DNA of 64,000 bases from a virus (taxonomy: Duplodnaviria; Caudoviricetes), in the IMG/VR virus record IMGVR_UViG_3300007177_000042. One strand, 5' to 3'. Position 1 is the stretch's first letter; each line of letters starts with the position of its first letter. A program made the translations under genes and the position numbers. The notes below the pieces were generated by a model. It ran no database searches and was not told the DNA's origin. It saw only the letters and a list, made by a program, of their open reading frames with translations. Shown piece after piece: positions 27,712 through 62,803 of this stretch.

Positions 27712-27717
27712 AAGTCA

Positions 27718-27746
27718 TTGACTTTTGATAAAATCTGGAGCATAAT
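27718..27746 (+). promoter_or_regulatory. Sigma70-type promoter TTGACT-N17-CATAAT, leaderless
   Basis: ATG 27753 lies 6 nt after the -10 box. Confidence 0.75.
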
Positions 27747-27752
27747 GACGAT

Positions 27753-30541: not shown

Positions 30542-30819
30542 AAAAATACCACTACATAGAGTTGATTAAGGGACAGGCCTATTTGTTGTATGATGCTACA
30601 ACATCAAAAGACTTCTTCGATACCAAATCGATCATAGCAATCGGAGACGAACGAACAGTAAAAAACGAAATCAAAAAACTTTCGGGTGACTGTGTGTTCA
30701 TGTACTATCAACTTAAAGACGTAAAGTTGGCAAAGGACGGATCTATATTTCAGTTGGATTTCAAAAAATACCTTACTAAAAACTTTACCGAATATAAACC
30801 GGAAGAAAAGACTAAATGA
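30538..30819 (+). CDS. Hypothetical protein
   Basis: 93 aa, ATGA overlaps on both sides. Confidence 0.55.
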   Translation: MKKYHYIELIKGQAYLLYDATTSKDFFDTKSIIAIGDERTVKNEIKKLSGDCVFMYYQLKDVKLAKDGSIFQLDFKKYLTKNFTEYKPEEKTK

Positions 30820-32000
30820 GCGCTGCACACGAATTTTTTGACATAGACGAGTTTGATTTCGAGGCGGAAAAGAAAAAGTTTGTAGATAATATGAACTTTT
30901 TGAAATCTATGAGCGTCGAAGAAGCCACGTTTTACAAAAAATATGAAGAAGTACAGGGATATCGTTCGTATGTTTCACGTAGTTCTTTGGTAAAAGCCAA
31001 AATCTGGACTCCTACAGACATAAATAACGAAGAACTTACACTCAAAGAGTTGGATGCTATCAACCCAACTGTAGTTCATGTAACCACCGATGACCAAGAG
31101 TTTGATTGGCTGATGTTACGAGTGTTTTGTCACACAATGGAGTTCAGTCAAACGCCTGGTCGTTTTCTTAAGTTTCTGATTACAGATGGAAATGCCGATT
31201 CACCACGATACTTGGGTGCTGTATCAGTTTCAAGTGACGTTATTACAATTACAGACCGTGATACGTACATTGGGTGGACACCTGAAAACAAATTAGAAGG
31301 TAAAAAACTGGTTCATAGTGCAATTGGAAGTTGTATTATGAGCACGCAACCATTTGGATACAATTTTCTAGGTGGTAAATTGGTAGCATGTTTGGTGACT
31401 TCGGGTGTTGTAAGAGATGTTTGGAAAAAACTGTACGATCAAACGTTGGTGGGTATGACAACAACCAGTTTGTATGGCAGTTATAGCATGTACAATAGTC
31501 TAAAGTGGTGGCACAAGTGTGGATCCAGTGCTGGAAAAATCCCTATCAAGCCAGATGATAATGTTTACAAAATTTGGCATGATTATATCAAGGAAAATAG
31601 AAAAGAAGAGTATAACAAAAAAATGACCCAAAAGGAGAATGTATCAGGACCAGTAACAGGTGCTAAACAACGGGTCATTAGTATGATTTTTCAGACGTTG
31701 AACCTGAAAACACAAGAATATGTTCACGGTTACGAACGAGGAGTGTACTACAGTTCGTTTTATAATAACACCAAAGATTATTTGTGTGGTAAAATAACAG
31801 AGGATAAACTGGTTATGAAACCACTTTTCGCTGAAGACACTAAATCGATTGTTGATTGGTGGAAACCAAAAGCTAAAGATCGTTATTTGAAGTTAAAAAG
31901 CGAAGGAAATCTTAAAACGGACGTTCTTTTCTATAATAGAATGATTGGAATGTCATATGATGATGCTAAAAACAACTTTTTTAACGAAGTTGGTCGATAA
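30816..32000 (+). CDS. DUF4338 (Druantia DruA-like) domain protein
   Basis: PGRFLKFLI...YLGAVSV..D.....RDTYIGW, STQPFGYNFLGGKLVA, TTTSLYG...YN pattern. Confidence 0.7.
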   Translation: MSAAHEFFDIDEFDFEAEKKKFVDNMNFLKSMSVEEATFYKKYEEVQGYRSYVSRSSLVKAKIWTPTDINNEELTLKELDAINPTVVHVTTDDQEFDWLMLRVFCHTMEFSQTPGRFLKFLITDGNADSPRYLGAVSVSSDVITITDRDTYIGWTPENKLEGKKLVHSAIGSCIMSTQPFGYNFLGGKLVACLVTSGVVRDVWKKLYDQTLVGMTTTSLYGSYSMYNSLKWWHKCGSSAGKIPIKPDDNVYKIWHDYIKENRKEEYNKKMTQKENVSGPVTGAKQRVISMIFQTLNLKTQEYVHGYERGVYYSSFYNNTKDYLCGKITEDKLVMKPLFAEDTKSIVDWWKPKAKDRYLKLKSEGNLKTDVLFYNRMIGMSYDDAKNNFFNEVGR

Positions 32001-34131: not shown

Positions 34132-34410
34132 ATGTTCAAAAAAGCAATATTATGGTCGTATATAGTATTGGCTTTATTTACCTATAAATTTCCGATATTA
34201 GTGCCACTAAGTTTAATCTTAGTGGCATTTTCTTTTTATCATATGCATCGGATTTTATTGATGAATAAAGACATAATCGACCAAAACACAGACGATGTTA
34301 ATCGTAGTATAACATCTTTACTTAACAATCAGAAAACCATACAATCTGACCTTAGAAAACTCAAATCATATACCGAGAAAAATGGCAAAAAAAGCGACAA
34401 CAAAAACTAA
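34132..34410 (+). CDS. Small membrane protein with coiled-coil tail
   Basis: Hydrophobic N-terminal ~40 aa then heptad segment. Confidence 0.55.
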   Translation: MFKKAILWSYIVLALFTYKFPILVPLSLILVAFSFYHMHRILLMNKDIIDQNTDDVNRSITSLLNNQKTIQSDLRKLKSYTEKNGKKSDNKN

Positions 34411-34894
34411 GAAGGTTCAGGTCGATGAAAGTGGTAATCCGATACCAAAAGCACTGGGTCTATTTGACCATGTGAATCATATACGTAAAGTCCAATCACT
34501 AGATTATTACGACACATTGTCTGATGTGGACAAAAAATCGTTTAATCATTTTATGATTTTGAGGACTTTATCGATGGACAGAAGTTCTATAGATTCGATT
34601 TCAAGTATAGCAAAATATCAATCTATAGTTCCCTCTAGAAATTTTTACATGTTGTGTACTGCTGTTACTAATCAAACTAATACCTATTTTCCTTATATCA
34701 AATCGTCTGCCAAATCGTTTAGTGATAAATTGATAGAATTGGTATCAAAAAAGTTTGAAGTGTCTACATTTGAAGCCAAAGAATATTGCAGAATTTATAT
34801 GAAAGATGAATCGGGTGTTAACGAGCTTCGACTCATATGTAAAGGGTACGGATTAACAGATAAAGAAGTTGATCAAGCAATGAAATATGAGTAA
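34382..34894 (+). CDS. Clamp-loader small subunit (T4 gp62-like)
   Basis: LFDHVNHI, FNHFMILRTLSM, YFPYIK, LIELVSKKFEVSTFEAKEY align by eye with gp62 blocks (FFEIIGAI, YSKFMVENALS, YGKWAK, IKLLAKRYQVNTNDAINY). Confidence 0.75.
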   Translation: MAKKATTKTKKVQVDESGNPIPKALGLFDHVNHIRKVQSLDYYDTLSDVDKKSFNHFMILRTLSMDRSSIDSISSIAKYQSIVPSRNFYMLCTAVTNQTNTYFPYIKSSAKSFSDKLIELVSKKFEVSTFEAKEYCRIYMKDESGVNELRLICKGYGLTDKEVDQAMKYE

Positions 34895-35549
34895 ACGTTA
34901 TATTGGAATTTCAGGTGTAGCAAGATCTGGTAAAAACCTATTTTGTGACATATCAAAAAATATACTGACCGAGAAGTATGGAGTCACATGTAACTCCTAC
35001 GCATTGGCATTTTATCTAAAGAACGATTGTCGTGAGTTTATCAAAGACAAACTCGGATTGGATGTTTTCACCGAAAATACCGATGAAAAGAAAATTTTCA
35101 GAGAAATGCTTGTTTGGTATGGTGACGTAAAACGTAAACAGTCTAACGGTCGTTATTGGACGGAAAAGTTACAAGCTGATATTGAAAAGGACAATTCGGA
35201 TGTTATCTTTATTACAGACATTCGTTATGATTTTTATCCAAAAGATGAAGTATACTGGATTAAGAAAGACCTAAATGGAACTTTGATTCACGTATCCAAA
35301 TATACATATGGATTTCCTCCGGACGGTCGTCGTATTCGTAGTGATGTAGCTGACACACAACAAAAAATTTGGGTTGAACCTGCCAACGATCATGAACGTT
35401 GGAACGATCCAAAAGTTAAAGCAGCTGCAGATTATACTGTTGCGTGGCCACATATAAAATCAGATGGGAAGACATATGATGATATTGTTAGGGACGAGTA
35501 TCTTAATACATTGATTTCTCCTATTTACGAACGAATATTTGGAAAATGA
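34887..35549 (+). CDS. Deoxynucleoside monophosphate kinase (T4 gp1-like)
   Basis: IGISGVARSGKN P-loop, FREMLVWYG..KR, FITDIRY. Confidence 0.8.
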   Translation: MSKRYIGISGVARSGKNLFCDISKNILTEKYGVTCNSYALAFYLKNDCREFIKDKLGLDVFTENTDEKKIFREMLVWYGDVKRKQSNGRYWTEKLQADIEKDNSDVIFITDIRYDFYPKDEVYWIKKDLNGTLIHVSKYTYGFPPDGRRIRSDVADTQQKIWVEPANDHERWNDPKVKAAADYTVAWPHIKSDGKTYDDIVRDEYLNTLISPIYERIFGK

Positions 35550-36385
35550 AAGGAATCATTCTATCAGGCGGCACTGGTTCTAGATTATATCCACTAACAA
35601 CGGTGGTCAATAAACAACTATTGCCTGTGTATGACAAACCAATGATATACTATCCTTTGTCTACACTTATATCGTGTGGGATAAAGGATATATGCATCAT
35701 TTCATCTTACGATTTTTTGCCTCTATATGAACGGTTGTTTGGCGACGGTAATAAACTTGGATTAAACTTGACATATAAAGTTCAACCAAAACCAGATGGT
35801 ATTGCCCAGTCTTTTATTATCGCTGAAGATTTTATCGGAGATGACAGTGTATCTTTGATTCTCGGTGATAATATTTTCCATGGGTTTAATCGAATGAGAG
35901 TCGATTTCACCGGTGCGGTTGTATTTGCTTACAAAGTCAATAATCCACAGGAATATGGTGTGGTTGAATTTAACGATGACGGTAAGGTTTTGTCCATTGA
36001 GGAAAAACCAACCTCACCTAAGACAAAATACGCCGTTCCTGGCCTATATTTCTACGACAACAGAGTCGTGAGTATAGCGAAACAACTAAAACCCTCTAAA
36101 CGAGGTGAACTAGAAATCACGGACATCAACCAAAAATATCTTGAAACCAACGATTTGAACGTGGTTAGGATGCCAAAAGGAACTGTTTGGCTGGATGCTG
36201 GTGTACCTTCTACTTTATCACAGGCAAGTAATTATGTACAAACAGTGCAAGAACGACAGGGGTGTAAAATAGCGTGTATTGAAGAAGATTGTTTGAATCA
36301 AGGGTTCATTGATAAAAAACAATTCAAGACGTTAATAAGCAAACTACCAAAATCGGAATATAGAACATACTTAGAATCTTTATGA
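35546..36385 (+). CDS. rmlA: Glucose-1-phosphate thymidylyltransferase
   Basis: KGIILSGGTGSRLYPLT, KQLLPVYDKPMIYYPL, LILGDNIF, RGELEITD, WLDAG. Confidence 0.95.
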   Translation: MKGIILSGGTGSRLYPLTTVVNKQLLPVYDKPMIYYPLSTLISCGIKDICIISSYDFLPLYERLFGDGNKLGLNLTYKVQPKPDGIAQSFIIAEDFIGDDSVSLILGDNIFHGFNRMRVDFTGAVVFAYKVNNPQEYGVVEFNDDGKVLSIEEKPTSPKTKYAVPGLYFYDNRVVSIAKQLKPSKRGELEITDINQKYLETNDLNVVRMPKGTVWLDAGVPSTLSQASNYVQTVQERQGCKIACIEEDCLNQGFIDKKQFKTLISKLPKSEYRTYLESL

Positions 36386-37248
36386 TATTATTACTTGGAT
36401 CAACGGGATATATTGGTACAGAATTTTATAGACAACTGTTTCAAAGGGGTATACCTACACGAAGTTGTACAGTACCCACAAAGGAATTGACGTTTAATCA
36501 GCTTAAAATGTTACACAAAACATTAAAATTGACAGCAGTTATTAACTGCGCTGGATATACCGGCAAACCAAACGTAGATGCTTGTGAGACTGACAAACAT
36601 AATGCGATATATGGAAACGTCGTTGTACCAGAAATGGTATCTATTTTTTGTGCTGATAACAACATCACGTTTGGACATGTATCATCTGGATGTATTTATA
36701 CGGGTCGTAGATTAGATGGACAACCATTTACAGAACATGATCGACCAAATTTTAGTTTTGAACAAAACAATTGTAGTTTTTATAGCGGAACTAAAGCTCT
36801 TGCAGAAGACATAATAAAGAAAAATGGAAACAAACATTATATATGGAGACTGCGTATACCATTTGAAGAGAAAAACAACTCTCGAAATTATTTGTCTAAA
36901 ATGTTGAATTACAAAAAACTTTTGGACGCAGAAAACTCTATATCTAATAAACAAGAATTTGTAAATGCTTGTATAGAAACATTGGTAAAAGAAGTTCCGT
37001 ATGGAATCTACAATGTTACAAACACTGGTTTTATAACCACCAAACATGTTATTCAAAAAATGCAAAATACAATCGCTAAAGACAAAGTGTTTGAATTTTT
37101 TGAAAATGAAGAAGACTTTTACAAGATCGCTGCAAAAACACCTAGATCAAATTGTGTGATGAGTAATAAAAAGTTATTGGATGCTGGTATTAAAATGCGA
37201 GATGTAGACGAAGCATTGGATTATTGTTTAACAAATTGGATCTCATGA
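36382..37248 (+). CDS. NDP-4-keto-6-deoxyglucose 3,5-epimerase/4-reductase-like (RmlD-superfamily SDR)
   Basis: GSTGYIG, NCAGYTGKPNVDACE, SSGCIY, SFYSGTK, LRIPF, RNYLSK. Confidence 0.8.
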   Translation: MILLLGSTGYIGTEFYRQLFQRGIPTRSCTVPTKELTFNQLKMLHKTLKLTAVINCAGYTGKPNVDACETDKHNAIYGNVVVPEMVSIFCADNNITFGHVSSGCIYTGRRLDGQPFTEHDRPNFSFEQNNCSFYSGTKALAEDIIKKNGNKHYIWRLRIPFEEKNNSRNYLSKMLNYKKLLDAENSISNKQEFVNACIETLVKEVPYGIYNVTNTGFITTKHVIQKMQNTIAKDKVFEFFENEEDFYKIAAKTPRSNCVMSNKKLLDAGIKMRDVDEALDYCLTNWIS

Positions 37249-38204
37249 ACTTGCTTGTTACCGGCGGATGTGGTTTTATAGGATCACATTTTATAGATGA
37301 AATGTTAAAACGTGACAATGTATATTCCATTGTGAATGTGGATAACATGTCGTATGCAGCCAATAAACAACTTTCATTTTCAAACAATGAAAGATATCAT
37401 CACTACAGTCTGGATATTTCTAAAAATCCAATTGATTTTTTGCTAAAATCGTATCATATCACCGACATAGTACATTTTGCGGCTGAAAGTCACGTTGATA
37501 ATAGCATCAATGATAGTGATCCTTTTATACAAACAAACATCGTTGGAACACACAAACTTTTGACAGATTGTTTGAAATATTCAAAGACGACGAACATTAG
37601 GTTTATTCATGTATCAACGGACGAAGTGTTTGGAAGTTTGGACTATACAGATGAACGATTCACTGTGCGTAGTCCATATAGACCAAACAGTCCATATGCA
37701 GCCAGTAAAGCTGCAAGTGATTTATTGGTAAGAAGTTTTGTAAGAACACACAGATTTCCAGCAATCATAACCAATTGTAGCAACAATTTTGGTCCTCGAC
37801 AACATAAAGAAAAGATGATACCAACGTGCATTCGGAATTTGAGAAATAAAACTCCGATTCCACTGTACGGAACCGGAACAAATATTCGTGATTGGATTTA
37901 CGTAAAAGATCATGTAAACATGTTGGTAAAAATACTTTATCAGGGAACAATTGGAAAACAATACTTAATAGGTGGTGATAATGAGATGACCAATATCCAA
38001 TTGATTACAGCGATAAAAGAACAATATTCATTGTTAACAGGTATTGATGTTGATTGGACATGGGTAAAATATGTGAATGATCGAAAGGGTCACGATTTGC
38101 GTTATGCGATTGATAATACCGATCTCATTGCAGAGTTTGGTGATCTTAATTATAACAACTTTACAAATGCGTTAAAGCAGACTATATTGTCGTATATATC
38201 ATGA
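37245..38204 (+). CDS. rmlB: dTDP-glucose 4,6-dehydratase (start ATG 37245)
   Basis: [72 protein letters not shown]. Confidence 0.95.
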
Positions 38205-39544
38205 GTGAATTTTTTGAAATTGAATCGTCCGATAAAGAGTACAAACATAAGGTTTTAGTATGGCCAAACATTACATACTCTGAAAATCTTGAAAAAGACT
38301 CGTATGTTATTGTATTATCAAATGTTATTAAAGCATTGAAATCGGTTCGCGATGATATATTTTGGACTATTGTAACGCCTGCTCATACAAAACTGTTGCA
38401 ATATGAAAATACTGAACAACTTATTTACAAATTCCCGACTTATCCAAATACGATGCGAGTTCATTTCGATGTGGATAAAGTTGCAAATATTCTTGATGTA
38501 CATAATCAGGATTATGACATAATCTATTCTCATCTGCCAGAACATACACTACAATTGGCTAATTATATTTACAACAATGCTGGAATTCGTCCTAAAATTG
38601 TTGGATACTGTCATTGGTATGAAGTCGAAGAAAACACCGGATACAGCAAAAACGTATTTGATCTCAATATTCTAGGTACGTTGGAGATGGAACAATGTGG
38701 TGTCAACTCAAAGTGGTTGAAAGAATTGGTATTACAACGTGCCGAAAGAACATTTAGTGCAGAAGTAATAAACAAACTGAATAGAATTATTCAACCACAT
38801 TATCTATCAAGCGATAGTGATTTTGACAACACCAATAAAACGATTGATAAAAGCATATTTTTCAATCACCGACCAAATGACTATACAGGATGGAACAGTT
38901 TTGTACAAGTCATGGATAAGTTGTGGGAAAAACGACAAGATTTTACTGTATATGTGACTCTTGCTGACGAATGTCGTCCTTACATCAAACGTGTCGAGTT
39001 AGAACGAAACAAATATTTTGACTTCATCAAACAAATGCACGTCGGAGTTGGATATTTTCAGACATATAGTGCATGGTCTTTGAGTGTAACCGATGGATTA
39101 ACAAGAGGTCTTCCATATCTTCTTCCAAAGAAACTATGCTATCCTGAAATGGTTGGCCCCGACTATCCGTTATTTTACGAAAACGAGGCAGAGTTTTTGA
39201 ATAAGCTTGAGGCAGCATTGGATAATAAAAACTTCAAAGTCGATCACGCAAACGAAATGAAAGAAATCGCGGATAGTCTTAGTTATAAAAATACCGTGCT
39301 TCAATGGTTCGATGAGTGGAGTATATTTGATGAATACGAAGTAATAAAGAGAAGTAAGGCGTATACTGATATTGTTAAGTTTATTGAACAAAACAAATGT
39401 GTTTCAAAACGTGATATTCTTGATTACTTGAACTGGGGTAGACAAATATCGTTTACTCCATATCGAAATACATTGAGAGAAGATCCAAGAATCATATTGA
39501 CTAAGGATCGATACATTTTCAAGACCGAGAAAACGACCGGATAA
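38201..39544 (+). CDS. GT-B (GT4-like) glycosyltransferase with extra C-terminal ~50-aa domain
   Basis: [38 protein letters not shown] acceptor/donor motifs. Confidence 0.7.
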
Positions 39545-39815
39545 TTGCGTTGTTGTGAACAAACGTAATTTTTGGTTGATCTAATACGGTAAAAAACACA
39601 TTGATATTGGCTGCTATTGTAGATGTCACCAACAATCTATATTGTGTTTCACATTCCATTTTAAGTCTGATTTTTTCTGCTTTTCGATTACACGAACACA
39701 TGTCTCTATAAGACTCGACAAGCAAAATATAATCCTTCATACCACCAATCGTATTTGAAATGGCATCATTGTTTTTAAGCAAATTGTAAAACTCCGTAAA
39801 ATTATTGATCGTCAT
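39519..39815 (-). CDS. Hypothetical protein (start ATG 39815, MTINNF)
   Basis: ATGA overlap with the upstream minus-strand gene; CSC motif. Confidence 0.5.
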
Positions 39816-40150
39816 AGAATCTTGTTCGTTATGGTAAAATATAACACCATTGATATTAAGTATTGAACACACACGGTATCGATTGTATTAAAGAAAATAG
39901 ACGATAGTATGTTAATCCAAAATCCTATACACCAAGGACACGATATCAATTTTGTAAAGAAACACGGATAAGTCGATTTTAACCAAGGAAGATATTCTAA
40001 TGTAAAATCGTTTTTGTATGCTTCTTCAAATTGGTCGATTTTGAATATCTTTGTTAACTTGAACAGTTTTGAGTATTCGATAAATGCTTCAGTATTGAAC
40101 CAAAGTATAAGTGTTACCGTCGAAAAGCATATTGTGTTTACAAAGTTCAT
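39812..40150 (-). CDS. Small membrane protein with CPWC motif (start ATG 40150)
   Basis: Hydrophobic segments, SCPWCIGFW; ATGA overlap. Confidence 0.5.
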   Translation of the reverse strand: MNFVNTICFSTVTLILWFNTEAFIEYSKLFKLTKIFKIDQFEEAYKNDFTLEYLPWLKSTYPCFFTKLISCPWCIGFWINILSSIFFNTIDTVCVQYLISMVLYFTITNKIL

Positions 40151-41055
40151 AGGGCAGATCTGATAGTGTATTGGTTTTTGATCTGAAACTCTTGTAGGCA
40201 CCTGCCTAACGCCGCCTCAGCCTTACTCTTGAAGTTGTTTCTATCCTCAAAGTATACCACGTAGTTTTTGTATGGGTTTGACCGCAACAAATAGTTCTCT
40301 GCTACAATTATATTGTTCATCAGATATTGTTCAACGTCGATCTTGTTTAGTTTCATTATTTGCGCAGCAAACATAACATAGGTATCATCTACACCGTATG
40401 GACCCAATACGTCTGGAATATCGGTGTGAGTCAGTAAATTAGAACTGATCATGTTAAACCATCCACCACCAAACTTTATTGGATTGCATGGCATAAGATT
40501 GACCGAATCAGAGTATGATTTTCTATTTACCTCGAAATATGGGTTGATGGTTCGTTCACTGCCGTACTTGTTGTCAATAAACTGTGAATTTACCAAATGG
40601 TCCCATGTAGAATCCCATATTTTTGTTATTTGTGGAGAAACGATATAATACTTGTTGGAAATGTGTTTAGCACAATGTATAGCGTAAGCCAAAATCCCAA
40701 CGGGAAATACCAAATCAGAATCAAGATAGATGAATGCATCTACACTATTTCCGAATTTACGTACACTGTTTCGTCTTTTGTCGTTAATACCTCTACATGA
40801 ACCATAGTCATCCACGTCAAAAATATAGTTTTTTGCCCACGATGTGTGTGTTACATATTTCGTAAGCGATTCAAACTTTTCTATGAAAAACTCTTTCGGA
40901 ATTTTGGTTTGATCCCAATTTACAGTGTTTAGATTAAGAGTTACATCCAATGTAACTTCCGCAGAATCAATAACTTCTTGACTCAAAACAGTTAGTTGAC
41001 GTTCAAATTCGTCAAGTTCATGGGGTAGAAGATGTGTAACTATTTGAATTTTCAT
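40147..41055 (-). CDS. GT-A fold glycosyltransferase-like protein
   Basis: FIYLDSD (DxD), KFGGGWF, YGVDDTY. Confidence 0.65.
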   Translation of the reverse strand: MKIQIVTHLLPHELDEFERQLTVLSQEVIDSAEVTLDVTLNLNTVNWDQTKIPKEFFIEKFESLTKYVTHTSWAKNYIFDVDDYGSCRGINDKRRNSVRKFGNSVDAFIYLDSDLVFPVGILAYAIHCAKHISNKYYIVSPQITKIWDSTWDHLVNSQFIDNKYGSERTINPYFEVNRKSYSDSVNLMPCNPIKFGGGWFNMISSNLLTHTDIPDVLGPYGVDDTYVMFAAQIMKLNKIDVEQYLMNNIIVAENYLLRSNPYKNYVVYFEDRNNFKSKAEAALGRCLQEFQIKNQYTIRSAL

Positions 41056-42149
41056 AGGATGTGTTTCTTAAACTTATGCATAGCAGAAGATATTACCTGA
41101 TGCATATCATAATACTTATACTCAGCTAATCGACCGCCAAATATGTATTTTGAGTCTTCTGAGAATAATAATCGATATTGTTGATAACGGTGCATATTTT
41201 TTTCATCATTGATCGGATAGTATTTTTCTTTTCCACGTTCCCACGTTTGTGGAAATTCTTTTGATATAATTGTAAAGTCTTGCGTACCAAACTCAAAATG
41301 TTTGTGTTCGACAATACGAGTGTATGGAATTGATTGTTCTGTAAAGTTCATTACAGCACATCCTTGATAATCTGGTTTGTTTAATCTATATTCTTCGAAA
41401 CGAAGACTTCGATATTCAAGTTCTCCATATTTGTAATCACAAAATTCATCTAATGCACCAGTATAAACCACCTTTTTTGCTAGATTGTCCCATTTATCTT
41501 GGTTTTTCAAATAATCTTCGTTGAGGATAACATCACATCCTTCTTGCATGTTTTCCAACATACGTGTGTATCCTCCAATAGGAATGCCTTGATGACAATC
41601 ATAGAAATAGTTATCGTCAAAGTTGGTACGTATTGGTATTCTGGAAATTATGCTTTTAGGTAATTCTTTGGGTTCTCGTCCCCATTGTTTTTTAGTATAT
41701 CCATGAAAAAATTTCAAATAAATCTCTTCTCCAACCGTAGATAAAAGATGTTCCTCTAAGTTTGAAGGGTTATCAATTTTGACACGAACTTCATTTAGTT
41801 TATTTATAGCTTCTTCTGGAGTGTTGCATCCGAAGATTTGATACAATGTAAACAAATTGATCGGAAACGAGTATATTTGATTTTGATAGTTTACCTTTAC
41901 ACGATTAGTAAAGTGGTTGAATTTTGCAAATCTATTGACGTATGTCCATACGTCTGCATTGGATGTTCTAAAAATGTGAGGACCATATTTGTGGACGTTG
42001 ATGCCGTTGACATTTTCTGTGTACACGTTTCCAGCATTATGCGTCCGTTTGTCAATGATCAAACATTTTAGTCCATGTTCAGTTGCTTGTTGTGCAAAAA
42101 CACTACCAAACATACCACTACCCACTATCAAAAGGTCGTATGATTTCAT
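41052..42149 (-). CDS. glf: UDP-galactopyranose mutase (start ATG 42149)
   Basis: IVGSGMFG, HKYGPHIFRT, GYTKKQWG, LEYRSL, TRIVEHKHF, EKYYPIND, GGRLAEYKYYDM. Confidence 0.95.
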   Translation of the reverse strand: MKSYDLLIVGSGMFGSVFAQQATEHGLKCLIIDKRTHNAGNVYTENVNGINVHKYGPHIFRTSNADVWTYVNRFAKFNHFTNRVKVNYQNQIYSFPINLFTLYQIFGCNTPEEAINKLNEVRVKIDNPSNLEEHLLSTVGEEIYLKFFHGYTKKQWGREPKELPKSIISRIPIRTNFDDNYFYDCHQGIPIGGYTRMLENMQEGCDVILNEDYLKNQDKWDNLAKKVVYTGALDEFCDYKYGELEYRSLRFEEYRLNKPDYQGCAVMNFTEQSIPYTRIVEHKHFEFGTQDFTIISKEFPQTWERGKEKYYPINDEKNMHRYQQYRLLFSEDSKYIFGGRLAEYKYYDMHQVISSAMHKFKKHIL

Positions 42150-43093
42150 TTGCATAAATCAACCATCATATTTGCGTAATGTTTATATGTATTTGGTTTG
42201 TCATGTACAAACCCAGTATTTGTGTTTTTATATTTCGTAATATACGATTCTATAGCGTTAATCATTTCATCGGTGTTATTGAATGATTCGTGATCCGGAA
42301 CAGTGCTATGATTCTTTGCAAAAGTTTTCATTTGTTCTATCGGATTTAGTGCAAATACTTTTGAGTTACACATGGACGATTCCCCAAGTCTTACTGGATA
42401 CTCTAAATGTACTGGTCCAACTTGTTCGTGGAGAGTGACAATAGACCTGTTATAATAACCGATACACTCTTCTGGACTAATAAATCCGTTTCGATTATAT
42501 GTTACTTTGAATCCTCTACGTTCAAGAACATTTAGAATTTTTACGACATTTGGTCTGTTGTTGAGGGTGCCAAAATATGTAACATCAACGTCTTTGTTCA
42601 CAGATCGACGAATATTTGACTGTGCTAGAGAACATGGAATGTACATATAGAACAAATTATCCGTTAACTGATAAAGGTGTTCATTGATTTTTTTACTTTT
42701 TGCAATTTTTTTTCTGAACTCTATAACGTTGATACCCTCCAAACCATATCTTTGATATTCTGGATCGAACCCCTTTGTAAGATATTCTTCGATTACATCG
42801 TTATCGTGTAATATGCTTTTTGAACAAAGATAAAAGTTTGTTTGTGGATTTTTTGCAGCAAGTTGTTCAATATCAAATACTGACCACAAAAATACGTTTG
42901 TTATGTTTGTATATGGAATGTCGAAAAAATCTCCAGATTCTCCAAACAATACGTCTATGTATTTGTTTGAAATGTGATTTCGAAGAGGGGGTGCAAAATG
43001 ATGTGTAGATTGTATGCTCGAAAAAGCATCAATAAAGCCAGTGATTTTGTGTTTATCTCGTATCGCGATATCTCCCGTAACGGCTATTTGCAT
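42146..43093 (-). CDS. Putative glycosyltransferase (GT-B C-terminal-like domain)
   Basis: DVTYFGTLNNRP, YPVRLGE; cluster context. Confidence 0.45.
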   Translation of the reverse strand: MQIAVTGDIAIRDKHKITGFIDAFSSIQSTHHFAPPLRNHISNKYIDVLFGESGDFFDIPYTNITNVFLWSVFDIEQLAAKNPQTNFYLCSKSILHDNDVIEEYLTKGFDPEYQRYGLEGINVIEFRKKIAKSKKINEHLYQLTDNLFYMYIPCSLAQSNIRRSVNKDVDVTYFGTLNNRPNVVKILNVLERRGFKVTYNRNGFISPEECIGYYNRSIVTLHEQVGPVHLEYPVRLGESSMCNSKVFALNPIEQMKTFAKNHSTVPDHESFNNTDEMINAIESYITKYKNTNTGFVHDKPNTYKHYANMMVDLCK

Positions 43094-43839
43094 AAAATTG
43101 AGTTTCTTTCTTTTGTTATAAGCACCGAATAACTATTAGATTTGTAATATACTTGATTTGATATATTTCCAAACGAATCTATTTTTTGAAGTACGTTTTC
43201 AATATAGTCCGTTGTTACATATAATTGTTCTAATGACTCGGGAACAAACGATAACTGGTTCAGAAGATCATTTCTAACCAATATTGCATTACCTGTATAG
43301 CAAACCATTTTATACCCTTTTGTTTGTGCTAATTTTGATACGGATAAAATAGAACATCCACCTGAAGATTTGAATTCTTGATCCACAGTATAGTTACTAT
43401 TTGTTTCTATTAGAACAATTTTTGGACGAAATTTGTTCATTGATTCAAATATCAAACAGTCGCAGGAGTCTACATCTATCGACATCAAACAAAATTCGTC
43501 ATCCGTCAAGTTAAATTTCGATTTTGTGAGAATGTTATCTATCGAATTGTTGTGATTTATGTCTGGTTCAATAAATGCGTTGATACATTCTATGTTTTTA
43601 TTTTTTGATGATAGATCGTTTAAATCCACACATCGAGATTTGTTTCCTTCGATCAATATCGCATTAAATCTCTGATCTTTCCATAAGTTAAATACGTTAC
43701 TCAAATATATGCCGTCCCATGCTCCAAATTCAACAACGACTCCATTAGAAATGTGTAATTCTTTAAACAACTGTTCTATAATACCGTCTTCTCCATTCTG
43801 AGAAAAAACGTTTTTTGCATATTTAATGTATCCATTCAT
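43084..43839 (-). CDS. FkbM-like SAM-dependent methyltransferase
   Basis: FSQNGEDGII, VEFGAWDG, LIEG, SIDVDSCD, IETN. Confidence 0.75.
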   Translation of the reverse strand: MNGYIKYAKNVFSQNGEDGIIEQLFKELHISNGVVVEFGAWDGIYLSNVFNLWKDQRFNAILIEGNKSRCVDLNDLSSKNKNIECINAFIEPDINHNNSIDNILTKSKFNLTDDEFCLMSIDVDSCDCLIFESMNKFRPKIVLIETNSNYTVDQEFKSSGGCSILSVSKLAQTKGYKMVCYTGNAILVRNDLLNQLSFVPESLEQLYVTTDYIENVLQKIDSFGNISNQVYYKSNSYSVLITKERNSILCK

Positions 43840-43842
43840 AGT

Positions 43843-44550
43843 TTATATTTTGATGTATTCCACAGACGGAACGACAAAAAATTTTGTTTTCATTTGATAA
43901 TCATACCAACTTTCGTTAGTATTTGGTTTGATATGTGACGACATTATACAGATTTGTTTGAAATTTTGGTTAATATGTCGAATGGACGATGCCAACATAT
44001 GAGGTCCTGAATTTAAAGAAACAAAAGTATGACAACAGTTGATCAAGTCAACATATGTAGTAAGATCCGGTACCTCAATGTATTCAAATCCAAATGTTAA
44101 TCCGGAAGAATTTTTGTTTACAATCAATTTGACATTTGTATATGTTGACTTTATGTATTTTACAACACGGTCTATATCATATGATACGGTAATAGATCCC
44201 AAATCAATTAACACATCAATGTTTGATATATCGTTTTTTGGTTGATAGTATATCTTTGGAAAGCTGTTTTTTGGAACCAATCCATGAATATATTCCCAGT
44301 TTTTGATAAAATCATCGAATCGATTTTCGTATGATCTTCCGGGAATATCTCCCAATGTCCATTTGACATCTGATTGCCCTTTTATGTATGGATTTTTATC
44401 CCATACTATGGATCTTGTTGATGCGCTTCGAAACGGTGCGTCGTTGGTAAGAAACACCTCATGACCCTGTTCATGAAAACGTTCTGGTAAAGTGGAGAAT
44501 TGCAGCGTGTCACCTAGTCCACCAAAATAAGATTTGATTCCGTGTATCAT
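43843..44550 (-). CDS. GT9-like glycosyltransferase
   Basis: GGLGDTLQFS and FVSLNSGPHMLAS motifs. Confidence 0.55.
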   Translation of the reverse strand: MIHGIKSYFGGLGDTLQFSTLPERFHEQGHEVFLTNDAPFRSASTRSIVWDKNPYIKGQSDVKWTLGDIPGRSYENRFDDFIKNWEYIHGLVPKNSFPKIYYQPKNDISNIDVLIDLGSITVSYDIDRVVKYIKSTYTNVKLIVNKNSSGLTFGFEYIEVPDLTTYVDLINCCHTFVSLNSGPHMLASSIRHINQNFKQICIMSSHIKPNTNESWYDYQMKTKFFVVPSVEYIKI

Positions 44551-45961: not shown

Positions 45962-45962
45962 A

Positions 45963-46637: not shown

Positions 46638-46638
46638 A

Positions 46639-48518: not shown

Positions 48519-48519
48519 A

Positions 48520-50489: not shown

Positions 50490-50491
50490 AG

Positions 50492-52562: not shown

Positions 52563-52563
52563 A

Positions 52564-52789
52564 TTATGTTTGTTCAGATGCAACAGAAGTAATCACAGAT
52601 TGACTCTCTGGAGACAATTGTGATATCTGGTGGTTATAAATTTGATCTCTAAAGTTGGTATCATTTACAAACAGATGTAGCGATTTGTTCACTAAATCTT
52701 GTAAATAAAACTTCTTTGAAGACGATAGTTGTTTGAATTGTTCGTAGATTTCTTTATCTACTTTTACGCTTGTTAACGATTTTGACATA
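52564..52789 (-). CDS. Ribbon-helix-helix-like small DNA-binding protein (start ATG 52789)
   Basis: TSVKVDKEIYEQFK...LQDLVNKSLHLF beta-alpha-alpha pattern. Confidence 0.6.
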
Positions 52790-54827: not shown

Positions 54828-57494
54828 ATGTATCAAAACATTTATATCGACAAAAAGAATGAAATCGTCCATTTGTGGGACGATCAAAAGGGTTATCTTC
54901 AATTTAAGATGCCTAAGTATGCATATCGTAAGAAAGCTGGCGGAAGATATCGTTCTGTATACGGTGATGAATTGGAAAAGGTTACCTTTTTTAATAGAAA
55001 CGATCCTAGTATTTTTGAAGGCGACGTACCAACCGAAACGAGAGTTCTGATTGATGCATACGAAGATAGTGACGAACCATCTAAAGGACACCGTATTTTG
55101 TTTTTCGATATCGAGGTTGACAGCGAAGGAGGATTTCCAAATATCGAAGAAGGAGATAAGGAAATCACCGCTATTGCCTTGTATGAAAGCGTAAGCAAAA
55201 AGTATATTGCCATGATTTTGGATAAGGAACAAAAGCTCCAAAATTATGAAACCGACGACACGACTGTATTGAGTTTTTCAGATGAAGAGTCGTTGATCAG
55301 TTACTTCATGAATAAGTGGGAAGAAATCCAACCAACCATTGTAACGGGATGGAATATTGATGGATTTGACGTTCCATATTTGTATAATCGTATCAAACGA
55401 GTCATGGGTGGAGCTTTTGCTAAAAGATTGAGTCCAATTCAGGAATGTTATTACAATACATTTTCTAAACGAATGGTTGTAGCTGGTATTTCCTGTCTTG
55501 ACTATCTTACGCTATATCAGAAGTTTAGTGGTAAGAACGAGCCTACTTATGCATTGGGTGCTATTGGTAAAAAAGTTGTTAATATCGAAAAGATTACGTA
55601 TCATGGTAGTTTGAATGATTTGTATAAAGCAGATCTTAAAAAGTACATTGATTATAACTTGAACGACGTTAAAATCGTTGTGGCAATCGACAAAAAGACA
55701 CAATTCATCGACTTGGCTCGTAGTATTTGCCATACTGGGCACGTTGGATACGAACAATTTGGAACATCTTCAAGATACCTTGAGGGTGCTATTCTGATGT
55801 ACTTGCGTCGTAAAGGACGTGTTGCACCTAATAAACCAATGGAGGGTCGAGACGAATATGAACAGAGATTGGAAGACGGAGAAGAAGGATTTGAGGGAGC
55901 TTATGTTAAAAGTCCTGTGCCTGGTCGTTACGAATGGGTTTATGATTTGGATCTTACATCAATGTATCCGAATATCATCATCTCACTTAACATATCTCCT
56001 GAAACTAAAGTAGGAGTAATCAATCGTATCGAATATGATGATTGTTATTTGGATGAACGTAAGGCTGAATTGATAGAGTCCTATGAAAATTTAAGTGACA
56101 GCACCAAATCTAAAACACCCGTAGAAGACTACATCAATCAACGATTGTATTTGTACAATGCTCGTATGTTCTCACAACGAAAAGTGAGTAAGTATTACAT
56201 TGGTAATATTGTATATACTCAAGATGAATTGGAGAATTTGTTGTTTCAGTCCAATATGAGCATTGCTAGCAATGGTGCTATCTATAAACTTCCAAAAGAA
56301 GTTGGTCAGGAAGGAACTGTTCCAAGCATTCTTATCAAGTGGTTCAATGAACGTAAAGAAATGCGTAAGTTGGCATCCAAGTATCATAATGAGGGAAACC
56401 ATGAGTTATATGAGTTTTATGATCTTCGTCAGAAGGTGCAAAAGATTTTGCTCAACTCTATTTACGGATGTCTTGGTCTTCCAGTCTTTCGATTTTATGA
56501 TAAGGACAATGCTGAGGCTGTAACACTAACAGGTGTGGACATTATTAAGACTGCTAATCGTTCAATCAACCAATATTATCGTGGTGTATTGAAAGACAAC
56601 ACCGTCAGAGATCATGTTATTTATGTAGACACCGATTCTTGTTTTGCAAGTGCGTTACCTATCATTCAACAAACCATGCCTGATGTAAATCTCAACGATG
56701 AAAAGCAAATGACCGATGCTATTTTGAAAGTCACTGCTGATGCACAAAAGTATGTAAATACAATGTTCGGCATAATGGCAAAGAAATTGTTCAATGTTGA
56801 ACGACATCGGTTTGACGCAAAACAGGAGGTTATTGCTAAGACGAGTTTTTGGCTTGCAAAAAAACGGTACTGTCAATTGATCATCAATAAAGGTGGATTG
56901 GTATGTGATGAACTAGAAGTCAAGGGCATTGACGTTGTTAGAACATCATTTCCACCACAATTTAGAAAGTTCATGGGAGAAATTCTCATGGATTTCTTAA
57001 AAAAGACAGACAGAGAAGTGGTTGATCAAAAAATCTTGGATTTCAAATCGTCAATTAAGAGTCTAAAAACATTTGATATTGCAAAAAATACAAGTGTTAA
57101 GTTTCGTAGTGGTGACAAGAAAAAGGATTACAATCCAAAACAACGACAACCATTTCAGATATTGAGCGGCACCCCAGCACAAGTAAAAGCTGCGTTGGTT
57201 TATAATGATCTTCTTGATAAGTTTGGACTGTCGAAAGTAGTACCGCCAATTTTCCACGGTCAGAAGATCAAGTGGGTATATGTAAGACAAAACGAGTTTG
57301 GTGTGGACTGTATTGCTATGAAAGCCGACGGTACCGATCCAAAACAAATTTTGGATTTTGTCGATAAATATATCGATAGAGACGCTATGTATGAACAAGA
57401 ATTGAAAAGCAAACTTCTTGAATTCTATAACGTATTGAAGTGGGAATATCCAAACGAAAATAGTGCGGTAGCGTCTGAGTTTTTTGATTTTTGA
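54828..57494 (+). CDS. Family B DNA polymerase (T4 gp43-like)
   Basis: ExoI FFDIEVD, ExoII GWNIDGFDVPY, ExoIII YNLND, motif A DLTSMYP, motif B KILLNSIYG, motif C YVDTDS, KKRY, C-terminal SEFFDF. Confidence 0.97.
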   Translation: MYQNIYIDKKNEIVHLWDDQKGYLQFKMPKYAYRKKAGGRYRSVYGDELEKVTFFNRNDPSIFEGDVPTETRVLIDAYEDSDEPSKGHRILFFDIEVDSEGGFPNIEEGDKEITAIALYESVSKKYIAMILDKEQKLQNYETDDTTVLSFSDEESLISYFMNKWEEIQPTIVTGWNIDGFDVPYLYNRIKRVMGGAFAKRLSPIQECYYNTFSKRMVVAGISCLDYLTLYQKFSGKNEPTYALGAIGKKVVNIEKITYHGSLNDLYKADLKKYIDYNLNDVKIVVAIDKKTQFIDLARSICHTGHVGYEQFGTSSRYLEGAILMYLRRKGRVAPNKPMEGRDEYEQRLEDGEEGFEGAYVKSPVPGRYEWVYDLDLTSMYPNIIISLNISPETKVGVINRIEYDDCYLDERKAELIESYENLSDSTKSKTPVEDYINQRLYLYNARMFSQRKVSKYYIGNIVYTQDELENLLFQSNMSIASNGAIYKLPKEVGQEGTVPSILIKWFNERKEMRKLASKYHNEGNHELYEFYDLRQKVQKILLNSIYGCLGLPVFRFYDKDNAEAVTLTGVDIIKTANRSINQYYRGVLKDNTVRDHVIYVDTDSCFASALPIIQQTMPDVNLNDEKQMTDAILKVTADAQKYVNTMFGIMAKKLFNVERHRFDAKQEVIAKTSFWLAKKRYCQLIINKGGLVCDELEVKGIDVVRTSFPPQFRKFMGEILMDFLKKTDREVVDQKILDFKSSIKSLKTFDIAKNTSVKFRSGDKKKDYNPKQRQPFQILSGTPAQVKAALVYNDLLDKFGLSKVVPPIFHGQKIKWVYVRQNEFGVDCIAMKADGTDPKQILDFVDKYIDRDAMYEQELKSKLLEFYNVLKWEYPNENSAVASEFFDF

Positions 57495-57497
57495 GTT

Positions 57498-57899
57498 ATG
57501 AAAAGAAAAAGTCTATTACAAATACCAGAATCAGGCAGCGACCTGAAACTATATACATCATCTGGTACATTAATATCCAATGGTTATGAACGAGTTGTTA
57601 TTGGTGGTCGTGGTCCATACATTGAATTCACTGATAAACAAATTGAATTGAATTCGTTTGTAATTCCAAAAAATCAATTGTATCGACTAACGGATTTACG
57701 AATATACTACATCGAGTTTAGAAGCAACGATGAATCCAACGTAAAACTTTATTATCAATTGAAAACGGTAGCATATGCAGACTATAAAATCGGATATTTC
57801 TATATCGATCCACATGATCTGTACACAGATACCAACAAGAAATGTATAAAGACATTCGATTATGTAGATGAAACGGCACAGTCGTTTTTTGAATTATGA
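57498..57899 (+). CDS. Hypothetical protein with C-terminal QSFFEL
   Basis: 133 aa; RVVIGGRGPYIEF, YADYKIG. Confidence 0.6.
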   Translation: MKRKSLLQIPESGSDLKLYTSSGTLISNGYERVVIGGRGPYIEFTDKQIELNSFVIPKNQLYRLTDLRIYYIEFRSNDESNVKLYYQLKTVAYADYKIGYFYIDPHDLYTDTNKKCIKTFDYVDETAQSFFEL

Positions 57900-60552: not shown

Positions 60553-61296
60553 ATGACAAAAACAAATCTACAAAAGTTTATTTCAAAATACTCCCTCAAA
60601 GGGACGATCAATGCAGTAAAGTGGGCCGTCAGCACTGCCGACAAGACACTTAGTGTGAAAGCAATAACAGAAGACAAAACGCTTCTGATTGATTTGGTAT
60701 GGAACAATTTTACCGATTTGACCAATGACGTTGAGATCGGTGTCTATGAAACTGATAGACTTGAAAAAATGCTCAAGGCACTCTCCGAAGAGGTTTCTGT
60801 ATCAGTTAATGAGAATGATGGAAAAATCACGTCATTGAACCTTTCAGACGTGAATACGGAGATTCAGTTTATGACGGCTGAATTGACTGTTATTCCTAAG
60901 TCATCGAGTCTTAAGAAAACCCCTCCATATGAAGTAGAAATTGAACTCACCAAGGATTTTACCTCCAAGTTCAAAAGTGCTAAGGACGCTTTGTCTGATG
61001 AAGAGAAGCTAACATTTTTGATGGGCAAAAAGAGCAAGAAGTTGCAGATGGTTATTGGATATAGTTCAATCAACAGTAATAGAGTAACTTTGGATGTACC
61101 AGCGGTTGATGGAAAGGATACCATCAAGAGTGAATTGAGTTTCAACGCCACGTATTTCAAATCTATTTTGGATGCTAATGGAGACTGTGAAAATGCTGTA
61201 CTCAAAGTGTCTGAATCGGGACTTGCATCTGTACAATTTATTTGTGGCGACTTTGTTGCTACATATCACATGACCAAGGTTCAGTCGGCTGATTAA
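60553..61296 (+). CDS. DNA polymerase sliding clamp (T4 gp45-like)
   Basis: 247 aa, two similar alpha/beta halves, IGVYETDRLEKML, FNATYFKSIL, VSESGLASVQF. Confidence 0.8.
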   Translation: MTKTNLQKFISKYSLKGTINAVKWAVSTADKTLSVKAITEDKTLLIDLVWNNFTDLTNDVEIGVYETDRLEKMLKALSEEVSVSVNENDGKITSLNLSDVNTEIQFMTAELTVIPKSSSLKKTPPYEVEIELTKDFTSKFKSAKDALSDEEKLTFLMGKKSKKLQMVIGYSSINSNRVTLDVPAVDGKDTIKSELSFNATYFKSILDANGDCENAVLKVSESGLASVQFICGDFVATYHMTKVQSAD

Positions 61297-61834: not shown

Positions 61835-62803
61835 ATGAATGACCTATTTGAAGAAGAAGTTAGACCAGAAACCAATGCACACTCGTTGTGGGTCGAAAAA
61901 TATCGACCAACTACTTTGCAAAATTACATTGGAAATGAATCATTGAAGACAACCATTGGGTTTCTTTTGCAAGAAAAGAAAGACATTCCACATCTGTTGT
62001 TTTATGGTGGTGCTGGTACAGGAAAGACCACACTGGCTAAATTGATTACAAAAAACATCAATTGTGATGTGATGTATGTCAACGCATCTGACGAAACAGG
62101 TGTGGAAAACATTAGAACTAGGGTCAAAAGTTTTGCATCATCTGCTGGTTTCAAACCACTAAAAGTGGTAATTCTGGACGAGTGCGATTATTTGTCAGCA
62201 AACTCACAAGCGGCTCTACGTAACATGATGGAGACGTTTTCTGCTACTACCCGGTTTATTCTTACGTGTAACTATTATGAAAGAATTATCGGACCATTGG
62301 TGTCAAGATGTCAGACATATCAGATTTCTCCTCTTTCTAAAAGAGAGGTGGCGATTCATTTGACTAAGATTCTTAATGACGAAAAGGTGTCATACACACC
62401 AGAAGACATTGGATATATTGTTAACACGTATTATCCCGACATTCGTAAGGTCATCAATTTTTCTCAACAGAATTCTATCAACGGTGTGTTGAAAATTTCA
62501 AAGGAGAACGCTCTTAAAACAGACATTCATGAAAAGTTGATTTATCAGTTGAAAAATGGAATTGGAAAGCCTGCTGCGTTCAACGAGATTCGGCAATTTA
62601 TTGCGGATGCGGACATTACACAATTTGACGAATACTTTGAATTGTTGTATAACAAAGTTGACGAGTATGCTCCGGGAAAACAAGTAATTGCGACTGTTAT
62701 CATTGCAGAATATATGTATCAGAGTGCATTGGTTGTTGGTGCATTGAAAGAAGTGTCTTTTATGGCATGTATTAGTAAACTTCTTACAGATCTTAGAAAA
62801 TGA
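61835..62803 (+). CDS. Clamp-loader large subunit (T4 gp44/RFC-like)
   Basis: WVEKYRP, GGAGTGKT, NASDE, ILDECD, SRC, YPDIR. Confidence 0.95.
   Translation: MNDLFEEEVRPETNAHSLWVEKYRPTTLQNYIGNESLKTTIGFLLQEKKDIPHLLFYGGAGTGKTTLAKLITKNINCDVMYVNASDETGVENIRTRVKSFASSAGFKPLKVVILDECDYLSANSQAALRNMMETFSATTRFILTCNYYERIIGPLVSRCQTYQISPLSKREVAIHLTKILNDEKVSYTPEDIGYIVNTYYPDIRKVINFSQQNSINGVLKISKENALKTDIHEKLIYQLKNGIGKPAAFNEIRQFIADADITQFDEYFELLYNKVDEYAPGKQVIATVIIAEYMYQSALVVGALKEVSFMACISKLLTDLRK

What the first reader, a model, noticed from the sequence alone, without database searches (positions are those of the whole stretch)
38201..38230. Shared xFF(D/E)(F/I/L) terminal peptide links PolB, a glycosyltransferase, the DUF4338-like protein and an unknown protein: possible sliding-clamp interactome
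Seen: PolB ends SEFFDF (57474-57491); ORF 57498-57899 ends QSFFEL; GT 38201 begins MSEFFEIE; ORF 30816 begins MSAAHEFFDID. All lie at protein termini. Known: T4/RB69 gp43 dock on the gp45 clamp through a C-terminal hydrophobic peptide, and T4 alpha-glucosyltransferase has been reported to bind gp45. Inference: these three non-polymerase proteins ride the clamp (60553-61296) and act on newly replicated DNA.
Basis: partly seen in the sequence, partly recalled or inferred. Interest (0 to 1): 0.65.

Follow-up and report, generated by a model that had tools for sequence, protein, structure and literature searches.

The report
Clamp-docking tags on phage DNA enzymes
In this large lake phage and its relatives, the DNA polymerase, the clamp loader and several unrelated enzymes carry the same tiny Phe-Phe tag at one end, which most likely hooks them onto the phage's own sliding clamp so that they act on DNA as it is copied; binding has only weak computational support so far.

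Summary
Observation confirmed. All four Phe-Phe peptides lie at the stated termini. In one genome this is only mildly beyond chance (4 of 8 hits terminal, 1.1 expected), but relatives keep the tag: PolB 67/67, DruA-like 89/92, 133-aa orphan 113/120, glycosyltransferase (GT) 20/63 strict and 54/63 with degenerate forms, against a 6-7% background. It sits on variable linkers and uses synonymous codons, so selection acts on the peptide. ORF 60553 folds as a PCNA/gp45 clamp. The tag equals the PIP-box core without the glutamine. A fold of clamp trimer plus GT residues 1-30 scored 0.51 against 0.00 for controls: weak support only. In some relatives the GT and DruA-like genes lie between clamp and loader genes. 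Distant DruA-like proteins lack the tag, some carrying ParB- or UDG-like domains instead. Clamp docking is likely (about 0.8); DNA as substrate is inferred (about 0.6). T4 alpha-glucosyltransferase binding gp45 is the precedent. This scan noted the same pattern before on other phage genomes. New variant of a known kind.

The parts
38201..38224 (+). N-terminal tag of the glycosyltransferase (M-S-E-F-F core; Met1 takes PIP position 4)
   Evidence: conserved in homologues; 12-17 residue variable linker to the first strand; weak pass with the clamp trimer
38201..39544 (+). 447-aa GT-B (GT4-like) glycosyltransferase with a probable C-terminal winged-helix domain (about residues 385-441)
   Evidence: Atlas features match PF00534 clusters; PF13692 in 4 of 50 homologues, best E 2e-4; three winged-helix Pfam families at E 0.017-0.08 on the C-terminal piece (weak)
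30816..30848 (+). N-terminal tag of the DruA/DUF4338-like protein (FF at residues 7-8)
   Evidence: 89/92 homologues from loci; indel-rich, otherwise unconserved N-terminus
30816..32000 (+). 394-aa DruA/DUF4338-family protein, predicted GNAT acyltransferase
   Evidence: PF14236 79 bits, cut-off 27; DUF4338 described as a GNAT domain in PMC10853773
57474..57491 (+). C-terminal tag of family B DNA polymerase
   Evidence: 67/67 full-length homologues
54828..57494 (+). Family B DNA polymerase, 888 aa
   Evidence: PF00136, PF03104, phrog_262 E 1.7e-166
57879..57896 (+). C-terminal tag of the 133-aa orphan
   Evidence: F130 97% and F131 95% conserved, preceding linker mostly 14-54%; model pLDDT 57-59 over the last two blocks
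57498..57899 (+). 133-aa orphan; predicted beta-tent (Yippee/MsrB/cereblon-CULT/RIG-I-CTD-like) domain plus tail; function unknown, possibly a nucleobase or DNA-end binder
   Evidence: AF2 pLDDT 90; best VIA Z 7.8, rmsd 3.7, 90 aligned, with the top 20 rows from this fold group; lies between polB and clamp in 18 of 27 loci, after DruA-like in 5
60553..61296 (+). Sliding clamp, PCNA/gp45 fold, 247 aa
   Evidence: AF2 pLDDT 92.8; Foldseek E 6e-14 to PCNA; VIA Z 20.7 to archaeal PCNA and 18.3 to T4 gp45
61835..61858 (+). N-terminal tag-like peptide of the clamp-loader ATPase (LF here, FF in many relatives)
   Evidence: 40/75 homologues with F[FW] or YF; homologues without it often lack the whole extension
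61835..62803 (+). Clamp-loader AAA+ subunit (gp44/RFC-like)
   Evidence: phrog_168 E 1e-69
34382..34894 (+). Probable clamp-loader small (gp62-like) subunit
   Evidence: PF16790 E 0.003, below cut-off
35546..38204 (+). rmlA, rmlD-like and rmlB genes (dTDP-sugar synthesis) directly upstream of the tagged GT; possible sugar donor pathway
   Evidence: TIGR01207, TIGR01214, TIGR01181; this adjacency holds in only 6 of 75 GT loci

Best explanation
The peptide is a short clamp-interaction motif: the hydrophobic core of a PIP box (aliphatic or Ala, x, x, Phe, Phe/Trp) without the leading glutamine, carried on a flexible N- or C-terminal tail. It plugs into the hydrophobic pocket of the phage's own PCNA/gp45-type clamp. 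PolB and the clamp loader use it in the ordinary way. The GT, the DruA-like acyltransferase and the 133-aa protein (and Mom enzymes in relatives) have acquired the same tag, so they ride or swap on clamps left on new DNA and modify or read it right behind the fork, probably to protect it from host restriction. Shown: conservation, protein-level selection, terminal and extra-domain position, clamp fold, gene neighbourhood. Weakly predicted: GT tag binds clamp. Inferred: binding of the other tags, DNA as substrate, coupling to replication, anti-restriction role.
For: Conservation far above background in six unrelated folds. FF columns conserved while flanking linkers are not. TTT and TTC are used at about background frequency, so it is not a DNA T-tract. 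The tag is shared with two obligate clamp partners, PolB and the loader ATPase. It recurs on Mom (PF25680, 132 bits) and a second DruA paralogue in relatives. Five other Pfam-recognised glycosyltransferases in the window have no terminal tag. The clamp folds like PCNA/gp45. ESMFold2 of clamp trimer plus GT 1-30: ipSAE 0.51, best control 0.00, runs share at least 56% of contacts, partner pLDDT at least 43; the mark was reached by 58 of 80 solved and 2 of 110 mismatched pairs, but at 0.60 or under by only 7 of those 80 solved and by both mismatches, so this is weak support and may reflect likeness to solved PIP complexes. GT and DruA-like genes lie between clamp and loader genes in L223, L227, L236, L263, L264, and there both switch to FW together. 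In distant DruA-like proteins the same N-terminal slot holds ParB_N, DUF3102 or UDG domains instead, which points to DNA tethering. Precedent: T4 alpha-GT co-purifies with gp45 (PMC13216743); 34% of verified PCNA motifs lack the glutamine (PMC6881253).
Against: No experiment. The tag is optional: L275 has the same clamp and an FF-tailed PolB but a tagless DruA-like gene directly after the clamp gene; only 24 of 106 distant representatives carry it; cyanophage and pelagiphage DUF4338 proteins lack it. In many marine GT homologues it degenerates. Acidic flanks weaken binding to human PCNA, and these tags are acidic while the clamp has net charge -5. Expected clients here (DNA ligase, flap nuclease) show no terminal tag. 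No TET/JBP or C5-methyltransferase to make a sugar acceptor was found, though the contig is only about 49% complete and the TET search rang in no control. In T4, clamp binding is not what sets alpha-glucosylation levels. A conserved terminal FW also occurs on the 704-aa protein at 27753, with no known link to DNA.
Confidence: 0.62

Rival explanations
1. The tags do bind the clamp, but the passengers do not modify DNA. The GNAT acylates a protein at the fork (as Eco1 does on PCNA; own knowledge), and the GT and the small protein act on replisome or late-transcription proteins, using the clamp as a location signal.
For: No DNA substrate is shown. The DruA-like and Mom alignments do not match by profile (hhalign probability 0.3%). 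PMC10853773 suggests DUF4338 GNATs may target proteins. No base-hydroxylating partner found in the held half of the genome.
Against: Mom-family DNA modifiers carry the same tag; DruA-like proteins fuse to ParB_N and UDG domains; the GT has a probable winged helix; DNA methylase-like genes share the clamp operon in relatives.
Confidence: 0.2
2. The tag is a docking or degradation signal for another phage hub, such as the SSB, the helicase, or the MoxR/CobS-type AAA+ ATPase and its partner (26776-29867), not the clamp.
For: The 704-aa partner of the AAA+ gene has its own conserved N-terminal FW (53/56). Ligase and flap nuclease lack the tag. The complex score is only weak.
Against: PolB's extreme C-terminus and the loader are the classic clamp contacts; the motif matches the PIP core; tagged genes insert next to the clamp gene; unrelated proteins in place of the clamp scored 0.00.
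Confidence: 0.1
3. The peptides bind the host beta clamp rather than the phage clamp.
For: Degenerate GT tags such as IFDF loosely resemble the bacterial QL[S/D]LF motif (own knowledge); other phages use the host clamp (titles).
Against: No glutamine and paired aromatics; the phage encodes its own clamp and loader, and its own PolB carries the tag.
Confidence: 0.03
4. Coincidence: each FF is conserved for its own structural reason, or reflects T-rich DNA at gene ends.
For: In one genome the excess is modest (P about 0.014, post hoc). A second FF near the DruA-like C-terminus is plainly structural.
Against: The tags lie outside the folded domains on length-variable linkers, are lost as whole tails, use both Phe codons, and occur in six unrelated families at 53-100% against 6-7% background.
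Confidence: 0.05

Closest known systems
PIP box of PCNA clients (Q-x-x-aliphatic-x-x-aromatic-aromatic; PMC6881253), e.g. p21, FEN1, DNMT1
   Same: Aliphatic-x-x-F-F core, terminal or disordered location, PCNA-fold trimeric clamp; DNMT1 is a DNA-modifying client.
   Different: No glutamine at position 1 (the GT chain starts at position 4); position 4 is often Ala; flanks are acidic, not basic; phage-encoded clamp with only 10-15% identity to PCNA.
T4/RB69 gp45 clients: gp43 tail, DNA ligase LDFLF loop (PMC6212786), gp55, gp33
   Same: Short hydrophobic peptide shared by the polymerase C-terminus and non-polymerase clients, with acidic flanks; phage clamp and gp44/gp62-type loader.
   Different: Different sequence (paired FF, not LDFLF); clients here are modification-type enzymes; the loader ATPase has an N-terminal tag; ligase and flap nuclease show no terminal tag.
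T4 alpha-glucosyltransferase bound to gp45 (Sommer 2004; confirmed in PMC13216743)
   Same: A phage GT-B glycosyltransferase tied to the sliding clamp.
   Different: No sequence match to alpha-GT (PF11440 not hit); this GT has an added C-terminal winged-helix-like piece; a defined peptide is proposed; acceptor base and sugar unknown.
Mu Mom (PF25680) and DruA/DUF4338 (PF14236) GNAT families
   Same: 30816 is a PF14236 member; Mom-family genes of relatives carry the same tag.
   Different: 30816 is not Mom by profile; it stands without other Druantia genes in the held contig; activity unknown.
ParB-dependent phage DNA-modifying dioxygenases (PMC13229309)
   Same: A DNA-tethering partner activates a phage DNA modifier; distant DruA-like proteins are fused to ParB_N where these carry the tag.
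   Different: Different enzyme class; ParB there is a separate protein and no stable complex was trapped.

Membership tests
Canonical PIP box | Gln at position 1 | tested here: not met
   Position 1 is Ser (PolB), Asp (133-aa ORF), Met1 (DruA-like) or absent (GT). 34% of verified PCNA motifs also lack it.
Canonical PIP box | Aliphatic L/M/I/V at position 4 | tested here: inconclusive
   Met in the GT; Ala in the other three here; across PolB homologues A 33, L 25, I 6, V 3, M 2; Mom homologues have polar residues.
Canonical PIP box | Two aromatics at positions 7-8 | tested here: met
   FF in all four; conserved in homologues.
Clamp-interaction motifs (PIP-like) | Lies in a disordered tail or loop outside the folded domain | tested here: met
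   133-aa ORF: fold matches end at residue 112-122, tail pLDDT 57-59; GT and DruA-like: indel-rich linkers. No model was made for GT, DruA-like or PolB.
Clamp-interaction motifs (PIP-like) | A cognate sliding clamp is encoded | tested here: met
   60553-61296 folds as PCNA/gp45.
Clamp-interaction motifs (PIP-like) | Binds the clamp's interdomain pocket | tested here: inconclusive
   Weak predicted pass for GT 1-30, 0.51 against 0.00; no interface given. Real binding needs an experiment.
T4 gp45-interaction motif (LDFLF) | LDFLF-type sequence | tested here: not met
   None of the four tails has it (motif from PMC6212786).
DruA/DUF4338 protein family (PF14236) | Pfam score above the curated cut-off | tested here: met
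   79 bits against 27.
Druantia defence system | DruE-type helicase with DUF1998 domain and other dru genes alongside | tested here: inconclusive
   No PF09369 match in the contig while 8 controls rang, but the contig is about 49% complete; neighbours of 30816 are not dru genes.
Mom family (PF25680) | Profile match to Mom | tested here: not met
   30816 hits DruA only; hhalign of DruA-like against Mom-like alignments gives probability 0.3%. A shared GNAT fold was not tested.
DNA glycosyltransferases (T4 alpha/beta-GT and TET-linked GT-B) | GT-B fold | tested here: inconclusive
   Feature and weak Pfam matches to GT4/PF00534; no structure predicted, no PDB sequence match.
DNA glycosyltransferases (T4 alpha/beta-GT and TET-linked GT-B) | Partner that makes a hydroxylated base (dCMP hydroxymethylase, or TET/JBP with methylase) | tested here: inconclusive
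   Only one thymidylate-synthase match, a strong ordinary one; no TET/JBP or C5-methylase match in a half genome.
DNA glycosyltransferases (T4 alpha/beta-GT and TET-linked GT-B) | Transfers sugar to DNA | not testable with these tools
   Needs an enzyme assay or nucleoside mass spectrometry.

The most novel reading that the evidence does not exclude
A large clade of uncultured freshwater and marine phages has turned its sliding clamp into a plug-in rail for DNA hypermodification. Unrelated enzymes (a new winged-helix GT-B family, DruA-type and Mom-type GNATs) and a beta-tent reader protein each gained a five-residue tag, interchangeable with ParB- or UDG-type tethers. The GT and DruA-like enzyme would act as a pair to install a new acylated-sugar base behind the fork. 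The tag would then be a search key for unknown DNA-modifying enzymes and would show that DruA acts on DNA.
Probability: 0.35. Interest if true: 0.8.

Novelty: new variant of a known kind. Interest (0 to 1): 0.56.

Why it matters
Clamp-tethered DNA modification is known from single cases (DNMT1 on PCNA, T4 alpha-GT on gp45), and I found no paper in the held library that describes a shared clamp tag on phage modification enzymes. If true, the tag sorts the one DNA-acting glycosyltransferase from the many surface-glycan ones, assigns orphan proteins such as the 133-aa ORF to the replication fork, and gives a cheap test (peptide plus purified clamp) bearing on how phages protect new DNA from restriction and on what DruA does.

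Tried and rejected
DNA-level explanation (T-tract, terminator): rejected, both Phe codons occur at near-background frequency (Mom slightly TTT-rich, 28:2). The second FF near the DruA-like C-terminus: part of a conserved terminal helix, often YL or YF, not a tag. Sequence searches of clamp, GT and DruA-like against PDB: nothing significant; best clamp-profile hit T4 gp45 at E 0.12. Foldseek and Atlas for the 133-aa protein: no match below E 0.001, best TM 0.55-0.57 to Yippee and DUF427; the beta-tent call rests on Z 7.8, which can be a common arrangement. DruA-like versus Mom profile: no match. Cultured relatives: no GT match in GenBank phages; Microcystis phage Mel-JY01 has a related clamp (28%) and an FF-tailed PolB, but no DruA-like or Mom match, so it cannot test the passengers. 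Two further candidates outside the window had one or no relatives. Contig look-ups for tagless DruA-like proteins mostly gave short contigs without replication genes. Only one complex job was allowed, so the DruA-like, 133-aa and PolB tails were not modelled. The FF-to-FW co-switch rests on two or three related lineages and was not tested on a tree.

Full report
Setting. The window is part of a 171,680-base linear virus contig, estimated 49% complete. It encodes a family B polymerase, a clamp-loader ATPase, SSB, UvsX, a DnaB-like helicase, ribonucleotide reductase and a tail tube. It is a large T4-like phage with many relatives in IMG/VR and no close cultured relative.

Observation. The two N-terminal starts overlap upstream stop codons and agree with homologues. 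In this contig FF[DE][FILMV] occurs 8 times, 4 at termini against 1.07 expected (P about 0.014). That alone is weak, because the pattern was picked after the fact.

Conservation. Among distinct proteins from 262 fetched loci, F[FW] or YF lies at the matching end in PolB 67/67, DruA-like 89/92, 133-aa ORF 27/27, Mom-family 17/21, a short DruA paralogue 7/7 and the loader ATPase 40/75. The GT has it in 20/63, or 54/63 when degenerate forms are allowed. Background in 2,597 other proteins is 7% (N) and 6% (C). These sequences are related, so the counts are not independent, but the contrast inside each alignment is clear. In the 133-aa family F130 and F131 are 97% and 95% conserved while the linker before them is mostly 14-54%; 113 of 120 homologues have the tag and those without mostly lack the whole tail. 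GT and DruA-like tags sit on indel-rich linkers. Both Phe codons are used at near-background rates, so selection is on the peptide. The residues after FF vary; the stable unit is a small or aliphatic residue, two residues, then F-F or F-W.

Who carries it. The tag marks PolB's extreme C-terminus and the N-terminal extension of the loader ATPase, both obligate clamp partners. In relatives it also marks Mom-family proteins (PF25680, 132 bits) and a second DruA paralogue that sits directly before the GT. Five other glycosyltransferases recognised by Pfam in the window's reverse-strand glycan cluster have no terminal tag. Ligase, flap nuclease, helicase, UvsX and UvdE have none either.

The clamp. 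ORF 60553 was not recognised by Pfam, but its AlphaFold2 model (pLDDT 92.8) matches PCNA (Foldseek E 6e-14; VIA Z 20.7, rmsd 3.4, 227 aligned) and T4 gp45 (Z 18.3, rmsd 2.9, 215 aligned). The tag equals positions 4-8 of the PIP box; a third of verified PCNA motifs lack the position-1 glutamine (PMC6881253).

Complex prediction. Clamp trimer plus GT residues 1-30 scored ipSAE 0.51 (three runs 0.49-0.53) against 0.00 for three controls. Runs shared at least 56% of contacts and partner pLDDT was at least 43. The mark was reached by 58 of 80 solved and 2 of 110 mismatched pairs, but at 0.60 or under by only 7 of the 80 and by both mismatches. This is weak support and may reflect likeness to solved PCNA-peptide complexes. 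The guess was likely beforehand, so it raises my odds a little. The other tails were not modelled.

Gene neighbourhood. In L223, L227 and L236 the order is polB, clamp, GT, DruA-like, methylase-like, loader; in L263 and L264 it is clamp, DruA-like, GT, loader. In these, GT and DruA-like both read FW while PolB keeps FF. DruA-like lies within the fetched flank in 42 of 75 GT loci and directly adjacent in 15. The 133-aa gene lies between polB and clamp in 18 of 27 loci and after the DruA-like gene in 5.

The passengers. The GT is GT-B/GT4-like with a probable C-terminal winged helix (weak). Here it follows rmlA, rmlD-like and rmlB genes, but that link holds in only 6 of 75 loci. ORF 30816 is a PF14236 member, a family described as GNAT (PMC10853773), and is not Mom by profile. 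In the wider family only 24 of 106 representatives have the tag; others start at the first helix or carry ParB_N, DUF3102 or UDG domains in the same slot. I read that slot as a DNA-tethering position; this is inference. The 133-aa protein models as a beta-tent domain like Yippee, MsrB, cereblon and the RIG-I C-terminal domain (best Z 7.8), with invariant Tyr, Arg and Glu residues. A base or DNA-end reader is my guess.

Against. L275 has this clamp, an FF-tailed PolB and a tagless DruA-like gene right after the clamp, so the tag is not required. L276 pairs a ParB-fused DruA-like protein with a tagless GT. Cyanophage and pelagiphage homologues lack the tag. Acidic flanks disfavour binding to human PCNA, though T4 motifs are acidic too (own knowledge). 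No acceptor-making enzyme was found in the held half genome. In T4, alpha-GT does co-purify with gp45, but promoter strength rather than clamp binding sets the modification ratio (PMC13216743).

Verdict. The motif is real and under protein-level selection. Clamp docking is likely (about 0.8). Clamp docking together with action on new DNA is about 0.62. It works like a PIP box or T4 gp45-binding peptide but is a member of neither sequence class. I found no paper describing it. Earlier notes of this scan saw the same pattern on other phage genomes with binding untested; they are not independent evidence. New variant of a known kind; interest 0.56.

Noticed in passing
window 27753-29867 (+), after the AAA+ gene 26776-27711: 704-aa protein of no recognised family beside a MoxR/CobS-like ATPase; it has a conserved N-terminal S-D-[FY]-W peptide followed by an acidic stretch in 53 of 56 homologues. 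It could be another clamp client or a signal for a different partner.
   Followed up: partly
window 61835-61858: The clamp-loader ATPase has an optional N-terminal extension starting with FF in about half of relatives; those without FF often lack the extension altogether.
   Followed up: partly
G000:C1:92607-92870 (+), L266:4608-4871: Small ORF after a SNF2-type helicase whose likely second start gives an N-terminal I-E-N-F-F-D peptide; only one relative found.
   Followed up: partly
G000:C1:129558-130013 (-), P0351: 151-aa orphan ending S-L-D-F-F, close to the T4 clamp motif; no relatives in IMG/VR.
   Followed up: partly
P0366, P0368, P0359, P0367, P0376, P0385; L276: DruA-like proteins fused to ParB_N, DUF3102 or uracil-DNA-glycosylase domains; in L276 the ParB fusion is followed by a tagless homologue of the GT.
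   Followed up: partly
L220-L265, around the clamp gene: One or two N6/N4 methylase-like genes often sit between clamp and loader genes in more distant relatives; none was found in this contig.
   Followed up: partly
window 12611-13954 (+): 447-aa protein with only the C-terminal part of a family A polymerase domain (PF00476 E 1e-9), in a phage that replicates with PolB.
   Followed up: no
window 39519-52583 (-), 57896-60499 (+): Large glycan cluster (GT2, GT11, GT4, UDP-galactopyranose mutase, HAD-nucleotidyltransferase fusion); a GT4 gene appears split over 52020-52583 and 51049-52029.
   Followed up: no
L120 (Synechococcus phage S-CAM9): A tagless DUF4338 gene lies between the two clamp-loader genes of this cultured cyanophage, a possible culturable system for the enzyme's activity.
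   Followed up: no
L104, L106, L124, L155, L223, L236, L238, L280: PolB is split into two or three reading frames in several relatives; the last piece keeps the FF tail.
   Followed up: no
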